From positions 64,001-128,000 of the IMG/VR virus record IMGVR_UViG_3300021963_000029: a stretch of DNA of 64,000 nt; one strand, 5' to 3'. Positions 4,402 through 13,593 of this stretch are shown here, piece by piece. Position numbers and translations under genes: made by a program. Within the stretch, counting starts at the first letter, position 1; each line of letters starts with the position of its first letter. Below the pieces are notes generated by a model. It searched no databases. It had not been told where the DNA came from and was given only the letters and a program-made list of their open reading frames with translations. The stretch comes from a virus.

Positions 4402-4679
4402 TTTTACCCTGGGAAAATTTTTTTCTTATAATGGGACCCAAGTATATTTAATCCCTCCCACAGGCAAATTCCAATATAACTGAATTCATCCAAGGGGCTG
4501 GTCTCTGTCCCATACACATTCCTATAGAGCAACCTTACAGGACTTTTTTGACCCCAGAAAATTTTTTTAATCACTTGAAATAAAGCTCTTGTTTTCAAAG
4601 TTTTGTAGGTTAGGGTAGTTTGGATTTTTCGCATTACCCCACAAGGGGTAACATAATAACACAAAACACCTGCTAATTC

Positions 4680-4708
4680 ACTATAACATACCCACTGCAT
4701 TTTGTCAA
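4680..4708 (-). promoter_or_regulatory. Sigma70-type promoter
   Basis: TTGACA (4703-4708) - 17 nt - TATAGT (4680-4685). Confidence 0.7.
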
Positions 4709-4757
4709 CCCCTGTATTCACTGAGACCCACACATCTCATCACTGTTTTACATTGTG

Positions 4758-5055
4758 TTTTCCACATGTTTTCCACAATTATTCACAAGTTTTCCACAGG
4801 TATCTTATACTGAGTTTCACTGAGATTGTGTCACTCACTGGGATCTCACTGATTTACACTTAAGACCTGTGGAAAACTATCACTGTCAAGGGGCAATGTG
4901 CCAGTTCTGAGTGTTCCTGGGGGGTGTTGACATTTCTGAGGGTTTGTGATACAATGGGGGCCAAGATCACTAGACTCAGAGACATTTACTGACAATACAC
5001 TGAATTATACATAGTTTTCCACATTTTCCACAAAATAACACAAACCTGTGGAAAA
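4758..5055. promoter_or_regulatory. Cluster of 8 DnaA-box 9-mers in a non-coding island
   Basis: TTTTCCACA at 4758, 4769, 4790, 5015, 5024; TTATTCACA at 4779; reverse TGTGGAAAA at 4868, 5047. Confidence 0.8.
4927..4955 (+). promoter_or_regulatory. Sigma70-type promoter, opposite to the local gene direction
   Basis: TTGACA (4927-4932) - 17 nt - TACAAT (4950-4955), with extended TG. Confidence 0.75.
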
Positions 5056-5121
5056 CTCAACTACATTTATTTTGACATTTATTTGATTTCCCTAACATTG
5101 TGCGGAATGAACATTTAGGGG

Positions 5122-5852: not shown

Positions 5853-6114
5853 TCATCATCTCATTGATCTCATCATGGTTGATCAATTCATGATTCCAGG
5901 CAACACCATCATTGGTGGTCATTCTATCACAATTCTCCATGCACCTGATGAACTTATCATAGGGCATTTCATCATCATTTCTAAACTCTACACATGCAAC
6001 AGCAGTGTTATACAGAAACTGGTTGTTTTGCATCCACAGAGCAACATTCCAGGTTTCATAATTTGCCCAACCATTGTAAGTTTCTTGGGGCATTGCAGTG
6101 GTTTGATTTTTCAT
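5827..6114 (-). CDS. Phage hypothetical protein (YNGWANYETWNVALW motif), leaderless start
   Basis: Start moved to ATG 6114, which lies 6 nt after the -10 box. Confidence 0.7.
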   Translation of the reverse strand: MKNQTTAMPQETYNGWANYETWNVALWMQNNQFLYNTAVACVEFRNDDEMPYDKFIRCMENCDRMTTNDGVAWNHELINHDEINEMMIDFHSEEN

Positions 6115-6196
6115 ACATGTATGATAGCACAAAAAACCAGGAAAGTCAATAGGGGTTGTGCCAGTTCTTCAACTGGCACATGATGTCATTTAGTGG

Positions 6197-6376
6197 TCAA
6201 AAATCAAAGTCATCAGCATAATCATTGTCCATGATGTAGGCATCATCAGGCACAGGAACTTGATCCTCTTGAGTATCTACAACTGCATCCAATACAGTGA
6301 GAAGATCCTCACCAGTTTGTGCTTTGGAGAGCATAACCATGGCAGCAGTTTTAGGCAGGTTCAGAGTAGCAGTCAT
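6197..6376 (-). CDS. Small acidic protein (59 aa)
   Basis: MTATLNLPKTAAMVMLSKAQTGEDLLTVLDAVVDTQEDQVPVPDD... Confidence 0.6.
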   Translation of the reverse strand: MTATLNLPKTAAMVMLSKAQTGEDLLTVLDAVVDTQEDQVPVPDDAYIMDNDYADDFDF

Positions 6377-6419
6377 GAGTGAAATTAAAGGGTTGAAAGT
6401 GTAAAGAAAGAAGGGTTAA

Positions 6420-6860
6420 TCAAAAGTTTTTGGTGAACACAAAACCATCATTGAAGGCAAAATCATAATACAAATTGCGTTCCCATGTGGCAGTCCAATC
6501 AATCACAACAGGCACATCATCCAGGTTGGTGATGTAATGCTCACTGACATATTGCTCAGCAAATTGTTCCTCACTGTCATACTCTCCAAAGTATGCATCA
6601 CAGAAGTTTGCAATGGCATCAATACCAAACTCATCTACAAAAGCATCCACTGCTTCATAAGAATACTCCTCACCATACTTCACATAATCTTCATAATAGG
6701 CAAGGAAGTTATCATTACCATAGACCTGAATGAACTCAATCATGTCACCTTCATAGAAGTTTTCTTCCTTGAGTTCATTGATCTTTTCTTGCACATCATC
6801 AGAGATGGTGATGATAATGTTGGTCATTTCAGTGGTTTGGTTGGTGTTTTGATTTTTCAT
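6420..6860 (-). CDS. ArdA-like anti-restriction (DNA-mimic) protein
   Basis: Very acidic; C-terminal AYFGEYDSEEQFAEQYVSE...IDWTATWERNLYYDFAFNDGFVF resembles the ArdA C-terminal domain; leaderless early promoter. Confidence 0.6.
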   Translation of the reverse strand: MKNQNTNQTTEMTNIIITISDDVQEKINELKEENFYEGDMIEFIQVYGNDNFLAYYEDYVKYGEEYSYEAVDAFVDEFGIDAIANFCDAYFGEYDSEEQFAEQYVSEHYITNLDDVPVVIDWTATWERNLYYDFAFNDGFVFTKNF

Positions 6861-6914
6861 ACATGTATGATAGCACAGATTCCTTGAAAAATCAAGGGGT
6901 CTTGTGCCACTTTG

Positions 6915-7121
6915 TCAACTGGCACAGTCAACCTCAGTGATATATTGCTTCAGTGCTTCAATGTCATTTAGAACCATTTTTAGAGCAGATCTAGCATAAC
7001 CAGCAGCATAAGGATAACTCTTCTCATTGTCACTTACTGCCATCTCTGATTCAGAGATTGCCTTCTCACATGTGATAATGATTTTATTCAATTTAGACTC
7101 TACAATTTCATTCATTAACAT
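6915..7121 (-). CDS. Hypothetical protein
   Basis: 68 aa; the C-terminal codons overlap the promoter palindrome. Confidence 0.6.
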   Translation of the reverse strand: MLMNEIVESKLNKIIITCEKAISESEMAVSDNEKSYPYAAGYARSALKMVLNDIEALKQYITEVDCAS

Positions 7122-7387
7122 GCACCATAGAAAGGATTACCAAGTTGAGGCAGGTTAGTGTTATCTTTGACAAACACATAACCATATGCCAACCTCTCAC
7201 GAATAGCAAGTGCTTTCTCTACTCTGTTGAGGTACTTTTTAGACATAGTTTCAATGCCTTTCCATTCTAATACCTGCAAACACCATTCTTTTGATACATC
7301 ACCAAATGGAGTTTTTACAGGGTAAAATGACACAATCATTGTGCCATCTTTGGATTGAATTGTGGGGAAGTCAGTTGTCATAATCAA
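7115..7387 (-). CDS. Hypothetical protein
   Basis: 90 aa, early cluster. Confidence 0.65.
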   Translation of the reverse strand: MIMTTDFPTIQSKDGTMIVSFYPVKTPFGDVSKEWCLQVLEWKGIETMSKKYLNRVEKALAIRERLAYGYVFVKDNTNLPQLGNPFYGAC

Positions 7388-7590
7388 GCAGCAATAGCAG
7401 AGTACATGTTGATGGATTTGATTTCCATCAAAACATAATCATAATTCCAATTATGTTGCAAATCTTTTTTATATTGTTCAGCAGCAGATTTGCAGTCAAA
7501 CAGTTGCAGAGATTTGAAATCTTCACCCTCATAATCATGTCCACCAATGACAGAATACACTTGGGGTTGGTTGTTCATTTGTTTTTCCAT
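7384..7590 (-). CDS. Hypothetical protein, leaderless
   Basis: ATG 6 nt after TACCAT -10 box. Confidence 0.65.
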   Translation of the reverse strand: MEKQMNNQPQVYSVIGGHDYEGEDFKSLQLFDCKSAAEQYKKDLQHNWNYDYVLMEIKSINMYSAIAA

Positions 7591-7767
7591 ACATGTATGG
7601 TAGCACAGAATCCCTAGAAAGTCAATGGAGTCTGTGCCACTTCATCAACTGGCACATCATTATACTTTTCCGCATCAGTTCCGTGATACATGTAGTAAAT
7701 TGTGTTGTTCATGGTTATCATCATCAGCATGATAGTTCTTGATAACATGAAGTGATTGATTAGAGGA

Positions 7768-8238
7768 TCATTGATCACCATAGTCTGCCCAGAAAGCATC
7801 ATTGTGGGAGGGACGAATGCAGTCAACACCATGATCACGAATCACAGCAGCATTGTAAGGAGAATCATCAACCCAGAATTGAATATCCCAGAAACGCTCA
7901 ATGTCCATGAGTTGTTGACCCTTACACTGTGAACCAGTTGCATCATCATCAGTGTTCTTCATGTAGAGTGCATCAAACTCTGGCAAATGTTGTTGCAACC
8001 AGTACCCAGTTCCCTCTGCATAAATGTCAGGACGTGCAGTGGCAATAACTAGATCAAAACCATGAGATTTGCAGTGCTTTGCAACATCAACAACAGCATC
8101 AATAGCAGGGAATTGATCACACTCATCAAAACCAGATTGTGAACCATGATGACACAGAGTTGCATCAAGATCAAAAACAACGCACTTAGGATTGGAGACG
8201 TTGTAGATAACTTTGGAAAAGGATTTGGTTTTTTGCAT
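7768..8238 (-). CDS. HAD-superfamily phosphatase (PseT/PNKP phosphatase-like domain)
   Basis: VVFDLDATL motif I, ATAR motif II, K, WVDDSP motif IV; leaderless ATG 8238 after TATAAT. Confidence 0.8.
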   Translation of the reverse strand: MQKTKSFSKVIYNVSNPKCVVFDLDATLCHHGSQSGFDECDQFPAIDAVVDVAKHCKSHGFDLVIATARPDIYAEGTGYWLQQHLPEFDALYMKNTDDDATGSQCKGQQLMDIERFWDIQFWVDDSPYNAAVIRDHGVDCIRPSHNDAFWADYGDQ

Positions 8239-8622
8239 GTGTGTATTATAGGGCATTTTCAAGGATTTGTCAAGTGTTTTGTGCCACTAATACAAGTGGC
8301 ACATGGTATCACTAATTGGACTCAAGTTGTTCTAGTTGTGCATTAAGTTGCTGTGCATGAGTTTGTACAATGTTGAGACCAAAATCTAGGATGGTAGCAA
8401 CACCACTAAAACCAACAGTAGCAACAATCAGACCAGCAAAAAAGGTTTTCATAATTATACAGAAGGGGTGACAGAAATCTCTTTAATGTTTAATCCACAA
8501 AGTTGATTGTAGACACGATTGAGGATCAATTTATCAGCAGTTTTTGCCTTGCTTTTCTCATGCCAGATGGTCACACATCCATCATAAGTTTCAACTCTGA
8601 CTCTGTAGTTTTTCATGATCAA

Positions 8623-8862
8623 TCAGTACAGAAGGGAGAAAGAACCACAGAACTTACGCACCCATTGTAGAGTGTCATAATGACTGCGAGGTTTAGACAT
8701 TACCATGCTCTTGTTAGTAACAGGATTGAGAGCAATAGCAACATATTTGTGGTCACATTCTTGCCATTCAGGAGTGATTTGCTGAATGAACATTTGATTT
8801 ACTTTACCTTCCTTCCAGTTGTTGACATAGTGGAAGACTTGAGTGGTTTCTTGACTTTTCAT
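8623..8862 (-). CDS. Hypothetical protein, leaderless
   Basis: 79 aa after cassette. Confidence 0.65.
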   Translation of the reverse strand: MKSQETTQVFHYVNNWKEGKVNQMFIQQITPEWQECDHKYVAIALNPVTNKSMVMSKPRSHYDTLQWVRKFCGSFSLLY

Positions 8863-8962
8863 ACATGTATGATAGCATGGATTCCCCCAAAAATCAAGGG
8901 GGTGTGTGCCACTTCATCAACTGGCACATGGTATCATTTATCTGCCACACATTTGTGGTAAA

Positions 8963-9036
8963 AGCTAGTGACAAGACTTGAACTTGCGACCTGAGCTTTA
9001 CAAAAGCCCTGCTCTATCCAACTGAGCTACACTAGC
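8963..9036 (-). tRNA. trnT: tRNA-Thr(UGU)
   Basis: GCTAGTG acceptor, GGGCT-TTTGTAA-AGCTC anticodon arm, GTTCAA T-loop. Confidence 0.92.
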
Positions 9037-9042
9037 AAAAAG

Positions 9043-9357
9043 TCATTCCTTGGATATATTTAGAAGCATCCAAATACCAAGGGCAAAGACTAAAAATAGA
9101 AGCACGTACTTCCATGCTGCAACTAGAATAAATGCAAGCATTGCAAGTAATACAAACCCACCATCAAATCCTGATGATGAACCAGAATCAGATTCATTAT
9201 CATCAGAACTGTATGAGTTGTCTACAACTGCCATGATACATTTACCACCAGTCATAGACTCTGCAAATGCAACTGCATCACTGTGAGTGTATGCTTCTAC
9301 TCTCACAGTTTGTAACCAATTAGATGGTGTTCTTACAGTACACTTCCACTCATTCAT
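9043..9357 (-). CDS. Hypothetical membrane protein
   Basis: C-terminal hydrophobic helices after a Ser-rich linker. Confidence 0.7.
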   Translation of the reverse strand: MNEWKCTVRTPSNWLQTVRVEAYTHSDAVAFAESMTGGKCIMAVVDNSYSSDDNESDSGSSSGFDGGFVLLAMLAFILVAAWKYVLLFLVFALGIWMLLNISKE

Positions 9358-10022
9358 TTGTTATTGTATTCCTGAATGTATTGCTTGAGAGTATCAACAT
9401 AATCAGCAGGATTCTTGACAAAAACTTGTGTTTCACCTGAATGACAAGAAATAAGAGTCACAATTTGTTCCACTTTATTGCCAGTCATTTCCTCATACAT
9501 CATAGCATAACCAGTCTCCTGCACAAAATAGTTTTGGATCTGATTCTCATGCTTTGGTTTAGAAGAACTCTTGAAGTCAATCACAGACAATTTACCATTG
9601 TATTCTGCAATGCAATCTACACGACCTGCAATACCAAGTTGTTCAGAATACAGAGCAGATTCCTGATAGTGAATGTTATCCACATCATCAAGGAGTGCCT
9701 TGAATTGATTAAACAATTTGAGAGCAACTTCATACTTCTCAGCATCATAATCTGCATCCACATTGTTGACATAATCTTCCACAAGTTTGTGGAACTTAGT
9801 ACCATTGTTTGATGCAAATTGACTGATTTGATTTGCAGTTTCTTCACCTACACGTTCTCTCCACTCTGCAATTACTTTCCTATTCTGATAGGAAGTAACT
9901 GTGGTGACAGAAGGCAACAGTTTGCCATTGACAACATAGCGACGTGAACCATCCACAGTTTCAGTGGGGATGTCTGCAAGAGCAGGAAGATTGAGGTGAT
10001 TGAACTTAGTTTTGGTTTGCAT
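9354..10022 (-). CDS. PD-(D/E)xK exonuclease (Cas4/lambda-exonuclease-like)
   Basis: LPSVTTV, GTKFH, AGRVDCIAEYNGKLSVIDFKSS, YFVQETGYA. Confidence 0.85.
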   Translation of the reverse strand: MQTKTKFNHLNLPALADIPTETVDGSRRYVVNGKLLPSVTTVTSYQNRKVIAEWRERVGEETANQISQFASNNGTKFHKLVEDYVNNVDADYDAEKYEVALKLFNQFKALLDDVDNIHYQESALYSEQLGIAGRVDCIAEYNGKLSVIDFKSSSKPKHENQIQNYFVQETGYAMMYEEMTGNKVEQIVTLISCHSGETQVFVKNPADYVDTLKQYIQEYNNK

Positions 10023-10039
10023 AATAATGTTGTTGGTGA

Positions 10040-10189
10040 TCAAAGAAACTCAGCAATGTAATAGTCAACAGTAATTTCTAATTCTGCTGCTTTTGCTTCA
10101 AGTTCCATAGTATATTCTTCTGCCATTTGTTCATCAGCATGATCACAGAAGAGGTCAAGAGTGGATTGGTGCATAAACTTATCTTTCAT
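10040..10189 (-). CDS. Small acidic protein, leaderless
   Basis: MKDKFMHQSTLDLFCDHADEQMAEEY...; start after cassette. Confidence 0.6.
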   Translation of the reverse strand: MKDKFMHQSTLDLFCDHADEQMAEEYTMELEAKAAELEITVDYYIAEFL

Positions 10190-10475
10190 ACATGTATGAT
10201 ACCACAGATTTACTAAAAAGTCAAGCATTAGTGGACAGTCCTACAAGTGTCACATGATGTAAGATTTGCGATCAAATCTGTGCTTATTGTACTCAATTTG
10301 TTGTAAATCTTGCTTCATCTTAATGTCTATAACTGCATGGAGAGTCATAGCAAAACTAAAGCAAATAATACAGAAAAGAATAGGTTTCATTAATCTTGAG
10401 GATTGTTATGATGAAGAGCATAGTTAAACACTAATGCAATAAATGCAAGGGCAAACCATGCACCAAAGAATGTGA

Positions 10476-10895
10476 TCATTTGTAGAGATAACCTCCTGCC
10501 CAATCTGCACGTTTGTACATCTCAACACGAGATTGTTCATCAAGCAAGTTATATCTTACACCATTCTTTGCAGGTGATTGCCAAGTGGCAGATTTGTACA
10601 CATCACCAGTATTCAGATCAACAAAAGCATGTGCACTTTTCTGACTACCATAACTGGTAACATGGATAATCTTGGCATACTTTTTACCTTTAGTGTAAAT
10701 GTAATTATCCACACCATCACCTTCACAGAGTTTATCAATGCACTGCTGGTGATAGTCTACATTCTCACCTTTAGCAATGTATTGTTGGTGACGTTGAATA
10801 GCAGAAGATTGATAGTTGGTGCGAAGAACCTGGCACATTTCTTCAATCTTATCAATAACTTTTTCAGTGGTCAAGTTGGTGTTTTGATTTTTCAT
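10476..10895 (-). CDS. Phage hypothetical protein (KYAKI...HAFVD..TGDVYKSATW motif), leaderless
   Basis: Start at ATG 10895, 6 nt after -10. Confidence 0.7.
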   Translation of the reverse strand: MKNQNTNLTTEKVIDKIEEMCQVLRTNYQSSAIQRHQQYIAKGENVDYHQQCIDKLCEGDGVDNYIYTKGKKYAKIIHVTSYGSQKSAHAFVDLNTGDVYKSATWQSPAKNGVRYNLLDEQSRVEMYKRADWAGGYLYK

Positions 10896-11116
10896 ACATG
10901 TATGATAGCACAAGAATCAGCAAAAGTCAATAGGTCGTGGACAGTTCCACAACTGTCACATCTTTACATTTTCTCTGCAATAAACAAACCTATTCCATTC
11001 TTCATTTGTGAAATTGTCACTTGCATAAGGTATGCCAACAACATAGGCACAAAACTTGTTGATTTCCTCAGACTTTTGAGAGGATGAGATAACAACAGAT
11101 GCAATTAGTTCAAGCA

Positions 11117-11329
11117 TTAGAATCTCTTGGGAATGTCACAATATGCTAGAGGATTATAGTCACCTGCATCACTAAATGATGCTGCTGTGTCATGAATCAC
11201 TTTTGCTCTATACAATAGATCCTCAAGATCCAGCATCAGTTGATTCAAATCATCATCAGTTTTACCCAGCAGAGCATCACTAATTCTCTCAAATGCTGCT
11301 GCTGTTTGTAGCGTGTGTTGGTGTATCAT
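11117..11329 (-). CDS. Hypothetical protein
   Basis: Probable start MIHQHTLQ; upstream extension in the ORF track looks like another frame. Confidence 0.5.
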   Translation of the reverse strand: MIHQHTLQTAAAFERISDALLGKTDDDLNQLMLDLEDLLYRAKVIHDTAASFSDAGDYNPLAYCDIPKRF

Positions 11330-11467
11330 ACTACTTTGTATTTTGTCTTTATTGCTTTTAATACTTGTTTGCGTGCCTTTAGTTTGCCTTTGCAAGTGCC
11401 TTTGGTATTCTTTTGTTTTCCTGAGTTGTGCATCCAATTAGGTGTGTTCATTGTTTTACAGTTAGAA

Positions 11468-11540
11468 CAGGCACAGAGGGACTCGAACCCCCACTCAACT
11501 GCTTAGAAGGCAGTGGCATTATCCATTATGCTATGTGCCC
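11468..11540 (-). tRNA. trnR: tRNA-Arg(UCU), copy 1
   Basis: GGGCACA acceptor, ACTGC-CTTCTAA-GCAGT, GGTTCGAGTCC. Confidence 0.9.
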
Positions 11541-11570
11541 AAATAAGGGGCAACAATGCCCCTATTTATT
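11541..11570 (-). terminator. Probable intrinsic terminator hairpin
   Basis: AGGGGCA-TTGT-TGCCCCT followed by TATTT. Confidence 0.5.
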
Positions 11571-12088
11571 ATCAGAACTCTACAGGTTCAAGAGTAGGTT
11601 GAGCAACTGCACTTTGAGTGCTGGGAGCATCATTATCACCAGAAGTGATAGCATCAAGAATGGCAAGGATTTCATTACCATTTTGACCACGACGCAGAGC
11701 AGCAACCATCAGATCAGTAGACATAATGAAGAAGGTGGTAAATGAACAAGAGTGTGTAACTTTAGGGCAAACACATTCCCATTAGTTAAGGAGTGAGAAT
11801 AATTTCTACATCTTTGATAACATCTTCATCAGGTAGATTGTAGAGAAATTGATAATAGTCCTCATAATCAACACCTAGGTAACTAGCAAAATCTTCTAAA
11901 TCATCATGCAATTTACAAGTGTCAATCATGATCCCTCAACTGTTGATGTAATACATCATAGCACACAGAATCAGATTTGGGGAGAACTGTGTGCCACTTT
12001 GATTGGTGTCACAGTCTGTGCTTTAAGAACCACAAATGGGTCTCCAATTAGTAGAATAGAGCACAGAAAAATTCCTTTCCAGAGTTTA

Positions 12089-12274
12089 TTAGACATCATA
12101 CAACTTGTTGATACAAATCTGTTCTTTATACCAGGCATTGTCAGCATCACTATTCCATGAAATGCCTAGCATAAAATTATAGTGGTCTGCCCACAGATTG
12201 CAACTTGCCTCAAACCATTCAGCACTAGGTTTGCAGACAGAATAATCTTGAAAGTCCATTTTGATTTTTGTCAT
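12089..12274 (-). CDS. Hypothetical protein, leaderless
   Basis: ATG 6 nt after TATACT. Confidence 0.6.
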   Translation of the reverse strand: MTKIKMDFQDYSVCKPSAEWFEASCNLWADHYNFMLGISWNSDADNAWYKEQICINKLYDV

Positions 12275-12341
12275 GAAGACAGTATAGCATGAAAAAGGGC
12301 ACTGTGCTCATTTACAGTGCCAGTTCTACAAGTGTCACATG

Positions 12342-12554
12342 TTATACATCAATCTCTGCTAGTTTCTTTTGGTTGCGCAGTTCAGTAATAATAGTTTGTA
12401 GTTCAATCATATCTTGCCTACAATCTTCTAGATCTTCACAAAGAATGTCATACTGATACTCTGACTTACACCTACGAATTTGCTTAGTCAGTTTATCATA
12501 CTTTTTCCTTACATCTTTGAGATCTTTCTCATACTCTTGGATAGTCTTATTCAT
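12342..12554 (-). CDS. Coiled-coil hypothetical protein
   Basis: 70 aa heptad-like pattern. Confidence 0.65.
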   Translation of the reverse strand: MNKTIQEYEKDLKDVRKKYDKLTKQIRRCKSEYQYDILCEDLEDCRQDMIELQTIITELRNQKKLAEIDV

Positions 12555-12753
12555 TTGAGCAAACTAGAATTGAAGTAACGACGAAAAGCAGTGATAATGA
12601 TAATAAGAGTGCTAGACACACCAACCAAACCAAGGAAGGTAACAGCATCACCTGAAAATGTGTAACTTTGAGGCATTTGTTTTTTGATTACTCTGTAATG
12701 ATAGCAGATCTAGAGGTAAAAGTCAATGGATAGTGGACAGTTCTAGAAGTGTC

Positions 12754-13056
12754 CTATCCTATAACTCTGTAGCACACAGTTGCATTACCTTTCTTCACTG
12801 ACTCAATATGTGCAAATGCAGCATAACTGAGGTCCAGATCAGCATGAGAGTATGGACCCCTATCATTGACACGAACCACAACTTGTTTTCCATTATCTTG
12901 ATTGGTTACTCTAATTTTAGTTCCCATCTTTAAGTATGGATGAGCAGCAGTCCACCTATAGGGATTCATTGTTTCACCATTTGCAGTCTTTTGATATGCA
13001 AATCCATCACCAACACCATAAAATGTGGCAATGCCACACATTAGAGCAGCAATCAT
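12754..13056 (-). CDS. rlpA: RlpA-like double-psi beta-barrel lytic transglycosylase
   Basis: ATFYG...TANGETMN...TAAHPYLKMGTKIRVTN..NGKQVVVRVNDRGPY...DLDLSYAAF. Confidence 0.85.
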   Translation of the reverse strand: MIAALMCGIATFYGVGDGFAYQKTANGETMNPYRWTAAHPYLKMGTKIRVTNQDNGKQVVVRVNDRGPYSHADLDLSYAAFAHIESVKKGNATVCYRVIG

Positions 13057-13343
13057 TTAGACCAAAGACCTCGCTGAATCATATACTTTTTGATCTCAGT
13101 ATAAATGAACTGCTTGAGTTTGGGATCATCAGTCTTATCAAATGCTTGATACAGACGATTCAAATAATCATCAGGTTTGGTGACTTTGATAACTTCTGCT
13201 TTGGTCATTCCAAGACCAGAGATAGGCGAACCTGCTTTTGCTTTAGGACGACCAAAGTTACCAGTTACATTACCTTGGGTACGCAGTTTAGGTTTAATCT
13301 TGGAAAGATTAGAAGTTGCGAAGTTCATCTGTGTTTTATTCAT
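13053..13343 (-). CDS. Basic hypothetical protein, leaderless
   Basis: Start moved to ATG 13343 after cassette. Confidence 0.65.
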   Translation of the reverse strand: MNKTQMNFATSNLSKIKPKLRTQGNVTGNFGRPKAKAGSPISGLGMTKAEVIKVTKPDDYLNRLYQAFDKTDDPKLKQFIYTEIKKYMIQRGLWSK

Positions 13344-13380
13344 ACAAGTATGATAGCACACCAGGGGGAACAGTGGGGAT

Positions 13381-13593
13381 TTACTGTGCCAGTTTTTTAT
13401 GTGGCACAAGAGGTGGTTTGCTATTCTCCCTCTCAATATACTCTACAGTGCTGTGTAGTTTGTTATACAGGGCACTGAGGGATACTTTACCACTACCCTC
13501 CATAATCTTCTGTTCCTTTCTTGACAACAACTGTAGAGCACTCTTCAGTGCATCCAACTCATCAAGATTCAGTCTCACAAAATCTTCAGTCAT
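13381..13593 (-). CDS. Hypothetical protein
   Basis: 70 aa. Confidence 0.6.
   Translation of the reverse strand: MTEDFVRLNLDELDALKSALQLLSRKEQKIMEGSGKVSLSALYNKLHSTVEYIERENSKPPLVPHKKLAQ

What the first reader, a model, noticed from the sequence alone, without database searches (positions are those of the whole stretch)
4680..5100. oriC-like island: eight DnaA boxes, four of them helically phased
Seen: seven TTTTCCACA (five forward, two reverse) plus one TTATTCACA within 300 nt of non-coding DNA. The first four start at 4758, 4769, 4779 and 4790 (spacing 11/10/11, one helical turn), and a tandem pair sits at 5015/5024. I noticed no comparable cluster elsewhere in the window. Established: TTWTNCACA is the DnaA box, TTTTCCACA is the form reported for cyanobacterial oriC, and T4-like phages normally replicate without DnaA. 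Inference: the phage recruits host DnaA for its own origin, titrates DnaA away from the host (datA-like), or uses DnaA as a regulator of the flanking promoters.
Basis: partly seen in the sequence, partly recalled or inferred. Interest (0 to 1): 0.8.

Follow-up and report, generated by a model that had tools for sequence, protein, structure and literature searches.

The report
Host DnaA-box array in cyanophage
A gene-free control region of this T4-like virus of cyanobacteria holds seven perfect, helically spaced binding sites for DnaA, the host protein that starts DNA copying; related viruses keep such sites, so the virus probably docks the host initiator there to control its own promoters or replication start.

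Summary
Seven exact TTTTCCACA and one TTATTCACA lie at 4758-5055. The complete 180.8-kb phage genome has only one more exact copy.

The window belongs to a T4-like cyanomyovirus (it carries psbA and psbD) and encodes no DnaA-like DNA-binding domain. The boxes sit in a 720-bp non-coding island. They lie between a leftward early promoter and a strong rightward promoter that has no gene.

In three IMG/VR relatives the boxes and promoters are conserved while the linkers drift. Similar clusters or pairs occur in DSL-LC03, P-SSM7, S-ShM2, S-WAM1, Syn9 and S-PM2, spaced by about one or two helical turns. S-SRM01, P-SSM2, P-SSM4 and P-HM2 have no cluster.

A host-like Synechococcus chromosome (RCC307, 2.2 Mb) has only eight perfect boxes in total.

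An oriC-type unwinding signature (DnaA-trios) is not convincingly present, and GC skew is uninformative.

My best reading is a host-DnaA docking module that gates the island's promoters, including an orphan promoter plus AT-rich block built like T4 oriF/oriG. A pure DnaA sponge or a true DnaA-opened origin remain possible.

No paper describing this was found. This scan has already noted the same kind of array in at least 14 other cyanophage genomes.

The parts
4402..5121 (.). Non-coding control island between two leftward genes: a 52-aa gene (start 4401) and a 67-aa PHROG-2460 gene (stop 5122)
   Evidence: ORF lists. The 109-aa GTG frame 4404-4733 is broken by a 37-nt indel in relatives. No Rfam family matched.
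4680..4708 (-). Leftward sigma70-type promoter P_L: TTGACA, 17 nt, TG-n-TATAGT. It points toward the 52-aa gene and the genes beyond it.
   Evidence: Promoter scan gives 11 of 12 matches with an extended -10. Both hexamers are conserved in L034, L051 and L113.
4758..4798 (+). Phased array of four DnaA boxes. Three are perfect TTTTCCACA (4758, 4769, 4790) and one is TTATTCACA (4779). Starts are spaced 11/10/11.
   Evidence: The perfect boxes are conserved in relatives. The TTATTCACA site is not, and relatives carry an extra box 22 nt further left.
4718..4886 (+). Second iterated word TCACTG(A), all copies on the + strand; CACTG starts at 4719, 4741, 4818, 4836, 4847 and 4881, with further copies at 4693 and 4998.
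   Evidence: TCACTG occurs 6 times in 445 bp against 0.10 expected from the genome (Poisson P about 1e-9). DSL-LC03 uses CTCATAAGA and S-PRM1 uses CGCAGG in the equivalent regions.
4868..4876 (-). Single reverse perfect DnaA box inside a 14-nt repeat ACCTGTGGAAAACT. It lies about 86 bp upstream of the predicted P_R start.
   Evidence: It is conserved in all three relatives.
4897..4918 (.). Degenerate copy of the phage's early-promoter palindrome (TGTGCCAGTT...AGTGTTCCT). It is flanked by outward -35 hexamers at 4884-4889 (-) and 4927-4932 (+).
   Evidence: Comparison with the early-gene upstream cassettes TGTGCCAGTT-N4-AaGTGGCACA, then 7 nt, then TTGA(C/T).
4927..4955 (+). Rightward sigma70-type promoter P_R: TTGACA, 17 nt, TG-n-TACAAT. 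No open frame of 20 codons or more starts downstream before the convergent 67-aa gene.
   Evidence: Promoter scan gives 11 of 12 matches. ORF list at 20 aa or more. The promoter and the first transcribed bases GGGGGCCAAGATCAC are nearly invariant in L034, L051 and L113 and recognisable in S-PRM1 and DSL-LC03.
5015..5055 (.). Three perfect boxes at about +53 to +93 of P_R. Boxes 5015 and 5024 (+) are a tandem. Boxes 5024 (+) and 5047 (-) form a convergent pair with a 14-nt spacer.
   Evidence: The convergent pair, with starts 22 to 25 nt apart, is the most widely kept arrangement (Syn9, P-SSM7, S-ShM2, many IMG/VR contigs).
5056..5100 (.). AT-rich block (78% A+T over 40 bp) with two direct repeats ACATTTATTT at 5063 and 5075. 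On the minus strand these read AAATAAATGT, which resembles a late promoter.
   Evidence: Repeat D20. AT profile. An AAATAAAT-like element lies beside the box group in distant phages.
4403..4432 (+). Second rightward promoter-like site (TTTACC, 18 nt, TATAAT). Its start region resembles that of P_R. It is convergent with P_L across a conserved non-coding block (4440-4673).
   Evidence: repeat D4; partial conservation.

Best explanation
The island is a docking platform for host DnaA inside the phage's main non-coding promoter hub.

Shown:
- There are seven perfect cyanobacterial DnaA boxes.
- They are spaced by whole helical turns.
- They are conserved as footprints in relatives.
- They always lie beside promoters.
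- The phage encodes no DnaA-like DNA-binding domain.

Inferred mechanism:
- Host DnaA occupies the high-affinity boxes from the moment of entry, in either its ATP- or ADP-bound form.
- It oligomerises along the phased array at 4758-4798 and across the convergent pair 5024/5047.
- This controls the flanking transcription units by roadblock or looping.
- The main target is the orphan rightward promoter P_R. Its gene-less transcript runs through three boxes into an AT-rich repeat block.
- That promoter plus AT-rich arrangement is the architecture of the T4 oriF/oriG R-loop origins, and of oriE, which has an early promoter plus iterons.
- DnaA occupancy would therefore set whether and when this transcript is made or extended, and so gate origin priming or antisense transcription into the early genes.
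- As phage genomes multiply, the boxes would outnumber DnaA. That would give a built-in copy-number or time switch.
For: Clustering and exactness of the boxes.

Identity of the motif: TTTTCCACA is the cyanobacterial 'species-specific' DnaA box, bound in vitro by DnaA domain IV (PMC4674748).

Host versus phage protein: no PF08299 (Bac_DnaA_C) match in the phage. The phage is a cyanomyovirus with psbA and psbD.

Footprint: boxes, P_L and P_R are conserved in L034, L051 and L113 while linkers vary.

Recurrence in other phages:
- DSL-LC03: 7 of 10 genome copies in 456 bp.
- P-SSM7: 4 of 6 in 660 bp.
- S-ShM2: 4 of 7 in 280 bp.
- S-WAM1: 3 in 40 bp.
- Syn9: a pair. S-PM2: a triple.
- About 45 of 116 IMG/VR stretches with paired boxes encode homologues of this same genome region.

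Spacing: peaks at 11-12 and 21-22 for same-strand boxes, and at 13 and 23-24 for convergent boxes. E. coli DnaA prefers pairs 2-3 bp apart (PMC11317965).

Promoter followed by boxes in the leader: seen here, in DSL-LC03, in S-PRM1, and, behind a hexamer I read by eye as -10-like, in P-SSM7, S-ShM2 and Syn9.

T4 origin architecture: PMC3016281.

AT-rich repeat block.
Against: There is no binding or transcript data; every functional step is inferred.

The module is missing from S-SRM01, P-SSM2, P-SSM4 and P-HM2, so it is not essential to the family.

Seven to eight perfect sites is far more than known DnaA-regulated promoters use.

Box number, order and orientation change between close relatives. 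That fits a dosage trait better than a precise switch.

In P-SSM7 and S-ShM2 a tandem pair fills a spacer of about 40 to 110 bp, ending just before a start codon, with no room for an unwinding element.

The AT-rich repeats may simply be late promoters on the gene strand.

T4-type replisomes do not need DnaA (PMC3016281).
Confidence: 0.45

Rival explanations
1. DnaA sponge, datA-like in effect. The array has no cis role. It soaks up host DnaA, increasingly so as phage genomes multiply. This stops new rounds of host chromosome replication and spares nucleotides for the phage.
For: All sites are perfect, which by analogy with E. coli means high affinity. There are no weaker sites.

The island holds nearly as many perfect boxes as whole host-like chromosomes: RCC307 has 8 in 2.2 Mb, a Cyanobium has 6 in 3.1 Mb, and CUG2176 has 15 in 2.1 Mb. 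The RCC307 thrC-dnaN spacer has only 1-mismatch boxes.

Copy number ranges from 2 to 8, layout is fluid, and the array is optional among relatives.
Against: Helical phasing and a fixed convergent-pair geometry are conserved across genera.

The boxes always lie beside promoters and in the same genome neighbourhood.

One infecting genome offers only eight sites. T4-like cyanophages are generally thought to shut down or degrade host DNA in any case (general knowledge, not tested here).
Confidence: 0.2
2. True DnaA-dependent origin. DnaA oligomers on the array melt the neighbouring AT-rich DNA, as at oriC. The phage helicase loader then assembles the phage replisome on the bubble.
For: The box count equals that of the S. 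elongatus oriC, where 7 of 11 repeats are TTTTCCACA (PMC4674748).

The array has 11-bp phasing, as in oriC.

An AT-rich block with direct 10-mers lies next to boxes 5015-5055.

A NAN x4 run follows the tandem 5015/5024 and is kept in L034 and L051.

Lineage-specific iterated words resemble iterons.

The island lies between the small early genes on its right and, some 3 kb to its left, the baseplate and giant structural genes.
Against: A NAN x4 run occurs by chance at 18% of random sites, and the four-box array has none on its 3' side.

There are no low-affinity ATP-DnaA sites.

GC skew is monotonic and uninformative.

Several Kyanoviridae lack the cluster.

In P-SSM7 and S-ShM2 the boxes lie in tiny spacers without an unwinding element.

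T4 origins work through R-loops without DnaA (PMC3016281).
Confidence: 0.15
3. The motif is read by a protein other than DnaA. This would be a phage early protein or another host factor that recognises the longer word AGTTTTCCACAGGT. The match to the DnaA box would then be partial coincidence or mimicry.
For: Flanks are biased beyond the 9-mer: A at -2 (69%), G at -1 (66%), G at +1 (66%) and +2 (50%), T at +3 (57%), measured over 157 distinct contexts.

Three identical 14-mers occur in the island.

By my own comparison from memory, the word also shares 6 of 8 positions with the RpaB HLR1 half-site.

The predicted oriC of one host-like genome contains no perfect box.
Against: All nine core positions match the DnaA consensus in every copy. 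Monomer-like use in either orientation, at several spacings, fits DnaA and does not fit a fixed dimer or a direct-repeat binder.

Perfect pairs with the same CACAG flank also occur in host intergenic DNA.

The motif is the same across phage genera, whereas the phage-specific words of the island differ.
Confidence: 0.12
4. RNA-level element. The inverted boxes form hairpins in the P_R transcript or in early transcripts, acting as a terminator or processing site.
For: The only stable helix in the predicted P_R transcript is the 11-bp stem formed by 5013-5023 and 5047-5057. A loose U-rich tract follows it.
Against: The fold is not better than shuffles (z -1.09).

The four-box array is direct, not inverted.

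Stem sequences are strictly conserved rather than covarying across genera, while the loops drift.

L113 has lost one arm. Rfam found nothing.
Confidence: 0.03

Closest known systems
Cyanobacterial oriC (DnaA-box cluster next to dnaN; S. elongatus, Anabaena, Cyanothece; PMC4674748)
   Same: Same 9-mer, TTTTCCACA. Comparable number of boxes (3 to 12 in cyanobacterial oriCs). Boxes about 11 bp apart. An AT-rich stretch lies nearby.
   Different: It lies in a phage, with no link to dnaN or dnaA. It has only perfect boxes. It has no convincing DnaA-trio run. It is wrapped around divergent promoters. The predicted oriC of a host-like genome (RCC307) is much poorer in boxes.
Bacteriophage T4 oriF/oriG and oriE (PMC3016281)
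   Same: Phage type is the same (T4-like). There is a promoter with no coding role followed by an A+T-rich element. Like oriE, it has an early-type promoter and short iterated words. It lies at a local point of divergent transcription.
   Different: T4 origins have no DnaA boxes and need no host initiator. The promoter here is sigma70-type rather than MotA-dependent. R-loop formation is untested.
E. coli datA and DARS loci (DnaA-box clusters that titrate or recycle DnaA; PMC6868365, PMC5742627)
   Same: A non-origin cluster of consensus DnaA boxes could change the pool of free or active DnaA. Opposed boxes occur, as in the DARS core.
   Different: DARS has three boxes, with I and II opposed across 5 bp. 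Here the opposed boxes are 14 bp apart. Only S-PM2's triple, with 4 bp and 3 bp gaps, looks DARS-like. IHF or Fis sites were not assessed. The element is phage-borne.
DnaA-assisted phage and plasmid origins (P1 oriR, pSC101, F, RK2; DnaA effects at lambda pR/ori). This comparison is from my own knowledge, not tested here.
   Same: A mobile replicon carries host DnaA boxes next to element-specific repeats.
   Different: Those replicons encode their own initiator, which binds the iterons. No such protein was identified here. The replisome is T4-type.
DnaA-regulated promoters (dnaA, nrdAB and the E. coli ChIP-seq regulon; PMC11317965)
   Same: Pairs of boxes 2-3 bp apart lie close to or downstream of promoters.
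   Different: There are many more sites, all of them perfect. The target is a phage promoter hub.

Membership tests
DnaA-box cluster (binding array for bacterial DnaA) | Several 9-mers matching TTWTNCACA, here the cyanobacterial form TTTTCCACA, clustered beyond chance | tested here: met
   7 perfect boxes plus 1 variant lie in 298 bp. The genome total is 8 perfect boxes and 26 loose-consensus sites. Random placement gave at most 4 per 300 bp.
DnaA-box cluster (binding array for bacterial DnaA) | Physical binding by DnaA | not testable with these tools
   Needs EMSA, footprinting or ChIP. The only support is from the literature, for the same 9-mer with cyanobacterial DnaA (PMC4674748).
Bacterial oriC with basal unwinding system (PMC8287927) | DnaA box, a spacer of 16 nt or less, then three or more NAN DnaA-trios on the strand that reads TTTTCCACA (box-to-trio orientation taken from my recollection of E. 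coli oriC) | tested here: inconclusive
   Only the tandem 5015/5024 is followed by a NAN x4 run. Runs of 4 or more occur at 18% of random sites in this genome, and runs of 3 or more at 40%. The four-box array has none on its 3' side.
Bacterial oriC with basal unwinding system (PMC8287927) | A+T-rich unwinding element beside the boxes | tested here: inconclusive
   5050-5100 reaches 78% A+T against about 63% for the genome, with two 10-nt direct repeats. The same words read as late-promoter-like AAATAAAT on the gene strand.
Bacterial oriC with basal unwinding system (PMC8287927) | Compositional skew switch at the site, or linkage to dnaN/dnaA | tested here: not met
   Cumulative GC skew is monotonic over the whole genome. 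The neighbours are small phage genes. There is no DnaA domain in the phage.
T4 oriF/oriG-type R-loop origin (PMC3016281) | Promoter whose transcript has no coding role, followed by an A+T-rich downstream element within about 100 bp | tested here: met
   P_R matches 11 of 12 with an extended -10. No ORF of 20 aa or more starts downstream. The AT-rich block lies at about +90 to +140. The promoter is conserved in relatives.
T4 oriF/oriG-type R-loop origin (PMC3016281) | Persistent R-loop and replication start at the site | not testable with these tools
   Needs DRIP or S1 mapping, 2D gels, or a copy-number time course.
DARS core (PMC6868365) | Three boxes, with I opposed to II across about 5 bp, and III in tandem with II | tested here: not met
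   In this window the opposed boxes 5024/5047 are 14 bp apart and 4790/4868 are 69 bp apart. A DARS-like spacing is seen only in S-PM2 and some IMG/VR contigs.
Iteron-type plasmid/phage origin with DnaA boxes | Element-specific iterons plus an element-encoded initiator | tested here: inconclusive
   TCACTG occurs 6 times in the island (P about 1e-9), and lineage-specific words occur in DSL-LC03 and S-PRM1. No candidate initiator was identified; the neighbouring genes are small proteins of unknown function.

The most novel reading that the evidence does not exclude
T4-like cyanophages, which carry a complete replisome of their own, have nevertheless wired the host initiator DnaA into their programme. 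On this reading, a movable cassette of perfect DnaA boxes gates an R-loop-type origin or early transcript. Because the boxes multiply with the genome, the cassette also works as a copy-number timer and a brake on host re-initiation. This would be the first host-initiator-dependent control element in the T4 superfamily, and a handle on the unmapped origins of the most abundant marine myoviruses.
Probability: 0.25. Interest if true: 0.8.

Novelty: new variant of a known kind. Interest (0 to 1): 0.62.

Why it matters
Replication origins and early-to-middle control in cyanomyoviruses are unmapped. These phages lack the T4 MotA/AsiA system.

A conserved array of host-initiator sites in their main promoter hub gives a concrete, mutable target. 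It could be used to test how these ecologically dominant viruses start or time replication. It could also show whether they sense or disable the host cell-cycle machinery.

The same module is present in Syn9 and S-PM2, which are cultured in laboratories, so the idea can be tested at the bench directly.

My full-text searches found no paper describing DnaA boxes in cyanophages.

Tried and rejected
- Chance: rejected on the clustering statistics.
- Coding sequence: rejected. The only long frame is broken by a 37-nt indel in relatives.
- Known RNA family: none found.
- Structured RNA: the P_R transcript (z -1.09) and the P_L leader (z -0.06) fold no better than shuffles.
- Phage-encoded DnaA: none found.
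- GC skew as an origin test: uninformative, because nearly all genes are on one strand.
- TCACTGA as a window-wide motif: not enriched overall (11 found, 17 expected). It is enriched only inside the island.
- Intrinsic terminators in the island: none found.
- Host oriC comparison: the RCC307 thrC-dnaN spacer has only 1- and 2-mismatch boxes, so 'copy of the host origin' is not supported for that host type.
- Syn9 transcriptome paper (Doron et al. 2016): not held in the library, so published start sites near Syn9 52.5 kb could not be checked.
- Largest non-coding gap: I could not show that the island is the largest in the genome.

Full report
**What the window is.** The window is bases 64,001-128,000 of a complete 180,814-bp virus record. 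It carries psbA and psbD and ten tRNA genes, and nearly all genes are on the minus strand. Its nearest named relatives are the Synechococcus myoviruses DSL-LC03, S-SRM01 and S-SCSM1 of the Kyanoviridae. Its PsbA is 96-98% identical to those of Cyanobium and Synechococcus genomes such as RCC307. It is therefore a T4-like cyanophage of picocyanobacteria.

**The observation.** All seven exact TTTTCCACA in the window lie at 4758-5055, and TTATTCACA lies at 4779.
- The starts 4758, 4769, 4779 and 4790 are 11, 10 and 11 nt apart.
- Boxes 5015 and 5024 abut each other.
- The genome has one further exact copy, far away.
- Of the 26 TTWTNCACA sites in the genome, eight are in this one 300-bp span. Random placement never gave more than four.
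- The island contains no 1-mismatch boxes, and 2-mismatch sites occur only at background rate. It is a set of perfect sites, not a graded series.

**The setting.** The boxes lie in about 720 bp of non-coding DNA (4402-5121) between two small leftward genes.
- The only long frame, 4404-4733, is cut by a 37-nt indel in relatives.
- A near-consensus leftward promoter, P_L, is at 4708-4680.
- A near-consensus rightward promoter, P_R, is at 4927-4955. Both have extended -10 elements.
- P_R points against the direction of almost every gene in the genome. No frame of 20 codons or more starts behind it.
- From the -10 positions, I estimate its transcript would cross boxes 5015-5055 at about +53 to +93, enter a 78% A+T block with two ACATTTATTT repeats, and then meet the convergent 67-aa gene.
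- The four-box array lies about 85 bp upstream of the predicted P_L start. The reverse box at 4868 lies about 86 bp upstream of the predicted P_R start.
- Between the two promoters is a degenerate copy of the palindrome TGTGCCAGTT-N4-AACTGGCACA, which precedes many of this phage's early promoters.
- A second word, TCACTG, occurs six times in the island on one strand, against 0.1 expected.
- To the left, after a few small genes and a PHROG-1574 protein with a weaker glycosyltransferase match, come a baseplate wedge gene and giant structural genes. To the right are small early-type genes, including an anti-restriction protein.

**Conservation in close relatives.** Three IMG/VR relatives (L034, L051, L113) share the island. 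In the alignment the perfect boxes, both promoters and the first transcribed bases of P_R are nearly invariant, while linkers and flanks drift. The TTATTCACA site is not kept, and the relatives have an extra perfect box 22 nt to the left. L113 has lost box 5024.

**Conservation further out.** The table gives exact TTTTCCACA counts per genome and the tightest cluster.

| Phage | Exact boxes in genome | Clustering |
|---|---|---|
| DSL-LC03 | 10 | 7 in 456 bp, beside the homologue of the 67-aa gene |
| P-SSM7 | 6 | 4 in 660 bp |
| S-ShM2 | 7 | 4 in 280 bp |
| S-WAM1 | not counted | 3 in 40 bp |
| Syn9 | 4 | a convergent pair |
| S-PM2 | 8 | a triple |
| S-SRM01, P-SSM2, P-SSM4, P-HM2 | 3, 4, 1, 2 | scattered copies only |

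About 45 of them encode homologues of genes from this same part of the genome, usually a few kb upstream of the same giant structural genes.

**Shared geometry.** I compared 157 distinct box contexts from 41 cyanomyovirus stretches.
- The flanks are biased to aAG-TTTTCCACA-GGt.
- Same-strand neighbours are mostly 11-12 or 21-22 nt apart.
- Convergent neighbours are mostly 13 or 23-24 nt apart.
- These spacings are one or two helical turns.
- The convergent pair with a spacer of about 14 nt (here 5024/5047) is the most widely kept unit. Its spacer sequence is free to vary.
- Box number, order and orientation differ even among close relatives.

**Who binds.** TTTTCCACA is the documented cyanobacterial DnaA box. 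It makes up 7 of 11 repeats in the S. elongatus oriC and all boxes in Anabaena and Cyanothece, and DnaA domain IV binds it in vitro (PMC4674748).
- Use of single 9-mers in either orientation, at helical-turn spacings, fits DnaA. E. coli DnaA prefers pairs 2-3 bp apart (PMC11317965).
- Strict sequence conservation of both arms of the inverted pairs, without covariation, argues for a DNA-binding protein and against an RNA stem. The predicted RNAs are not unusually stable.
- The flank bias leaves some room for another reader of a longer word.

**Comparison with the host.**
- Synechococcus RCC307 (2.2 Mb) has eight perfect boxes in all, a Cyanobium (3.1 Mb) has six, and a 2.1-Mb Synechococcus MAG (CUG2176) has fifteen.
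- The RCC307 thrC-dnaN spacer, where oriC is expected, has only 1- and 2-mismatch boxes.
- Isolated perfect pairs with the same CACAG flank do occur in host intergenic DNA.
- The phage island is thus a far denser and stronger DnaA target than anything found in these host-like chromosomes.

**Is it an origin?**

Points in favour:
- There is an orphan conserved promoter followed by an A+T-rich repeat block. This is the minimal architecture of T4 oriF/oriG.
- Like T4 oriE, it has an early-type promoter with short iterated words, at a point of divergent transcription (PMC3016281).
- The second word of the island is lineage-specific: TCACTG here, CTCATAAGA in DSL-LC03, CGCAGG in S-PRM1. That is how iterons behave.

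Points against a DnaA-opened, oriC-like origin:
- The DnaA-trio pattern of the basal unwinding system (PMC8287927) is met only by a NAN x4 run after 5015/5024. Such runs occur at 18% of random sites.
- There are no low-affinity sites.
- GC skew is monotonic.
- The cluster is absent from several relatives.
- In P-SSM7 and S-ShM2 a tandem pair fills a short spacer, ending just before a start codon.
- The AT-rich repeats read AAATAAAT on the gene strand. Similar late-promoter-like words lie next to the box group in distant phages, always pointing in the gene direction. They may be promoters rather than an unwinding element.

**Best reading and rivals.** The constant feature across genera is perfect boxes beside or just downstream of promoters. 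I therefore rank the readings as follows.
- DnaA docking that gates the island's transcription units, including the origin-like P_R unit: 0.45.
- Pure DnaA sponge: 0.20.
- True DnaA-melted origin: 0.15.
- Another reader protein: 0.12.
- RNA element: 0.03.

That the boxes are a selected protein-binding array is close to certain. That the protein is DnaA I put at about 0.75-0.8.

**Novelty.** Full-text searches for cyanophage with DnaA box, for the 9-mer itself, and for cyanophage with DnaA and origin found no description of this feature. Earlier notes of this scan report the same kind of array in at least 14 other cyanophage genomes, with similar conclusions. Notes on this genome pointed to the orphan promoter and the shared palindrome, both of which I re-checked here. 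It is a new variant of known kinds (DnaA-box clusters; promoter plus unwinding-element phage origins) in a phage group where no host-initiator dependence is expected.

Noticed in passing
window 6100-13400 (minus strand), e.g. upstream of the starts at 6860, 7590, 8862: Many early genes are preceded by one cassette. It consists of the palindrome TGTGCCAGTT-N4-AaGTGGCACA, 7 nt, TTGA(C/T)T, 17 nt, TGcTATCAT, with the ATG a few nt after the -10. This suggests leaderless mRNAs and a common operator for an unknown dimeric factor.
   Followed up: partly
window 4403-4673: A second rightward promoter-like site (TTTACC, 18 nt, TATAAT, with a start region like P_R) faces P_L across a conserved non-coding block of about 235 bp. 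This may be a sense/antisense RNA pair. The fold is not unusual (z -0.06).
   Followed up: partly
window 4693-5002; L001 2694-3298; L003 1336-2218: Each phage lineage fills the equivalent island with its own short iterated word: TCACTG here, CTCATAAGA in DSL-LC03, CGCAGG in S-PRM1. The DnaA box stays the same. This hints at a co-evolving phage DNA-binding protein.
   Followed up: partly
L205 2911-2952 (Synechococcus RCC307, 474,410-474,451); L208 2873-2903 (Synechococcus MAG CUG2176): Host-like chromosomes carry isolated pairs of perfect TTTTCCACA, 22-33 nt apart, in AT-rich intergenic spots far from dnaN. These may be DnaA-regulated host genes or phage-derived DNA.
   Followed up: no
L216 1678-1834 (S-PM2 NC_006820, 19,177-19,333): The record annotates tRNA-Asn and tRNA-Leu over the stretch that holds the three DnaA boxes. 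ARAGORN finds no tRNA anywhere in the 4-kb locus, so the feature coordinates of that record appear shifted.
   Followed up: partly
window 6420-6860 (-): A 146-aa protein matches PHROG 36653, an anti-restriction protein (E 9e-28), under one of the early cassettes.
   Followed up: no
L120, L121, L215, L001, L045, L058, L068 (sequence just after the box group): In distant cyanomyoviruses the box group is followed, in the gene direction, by an AT-rich AAATAAAT/AAAAAACATA word and then (T)AGGTGTG. This looks like a late-type promoter and its start site.
   Followed up: partly
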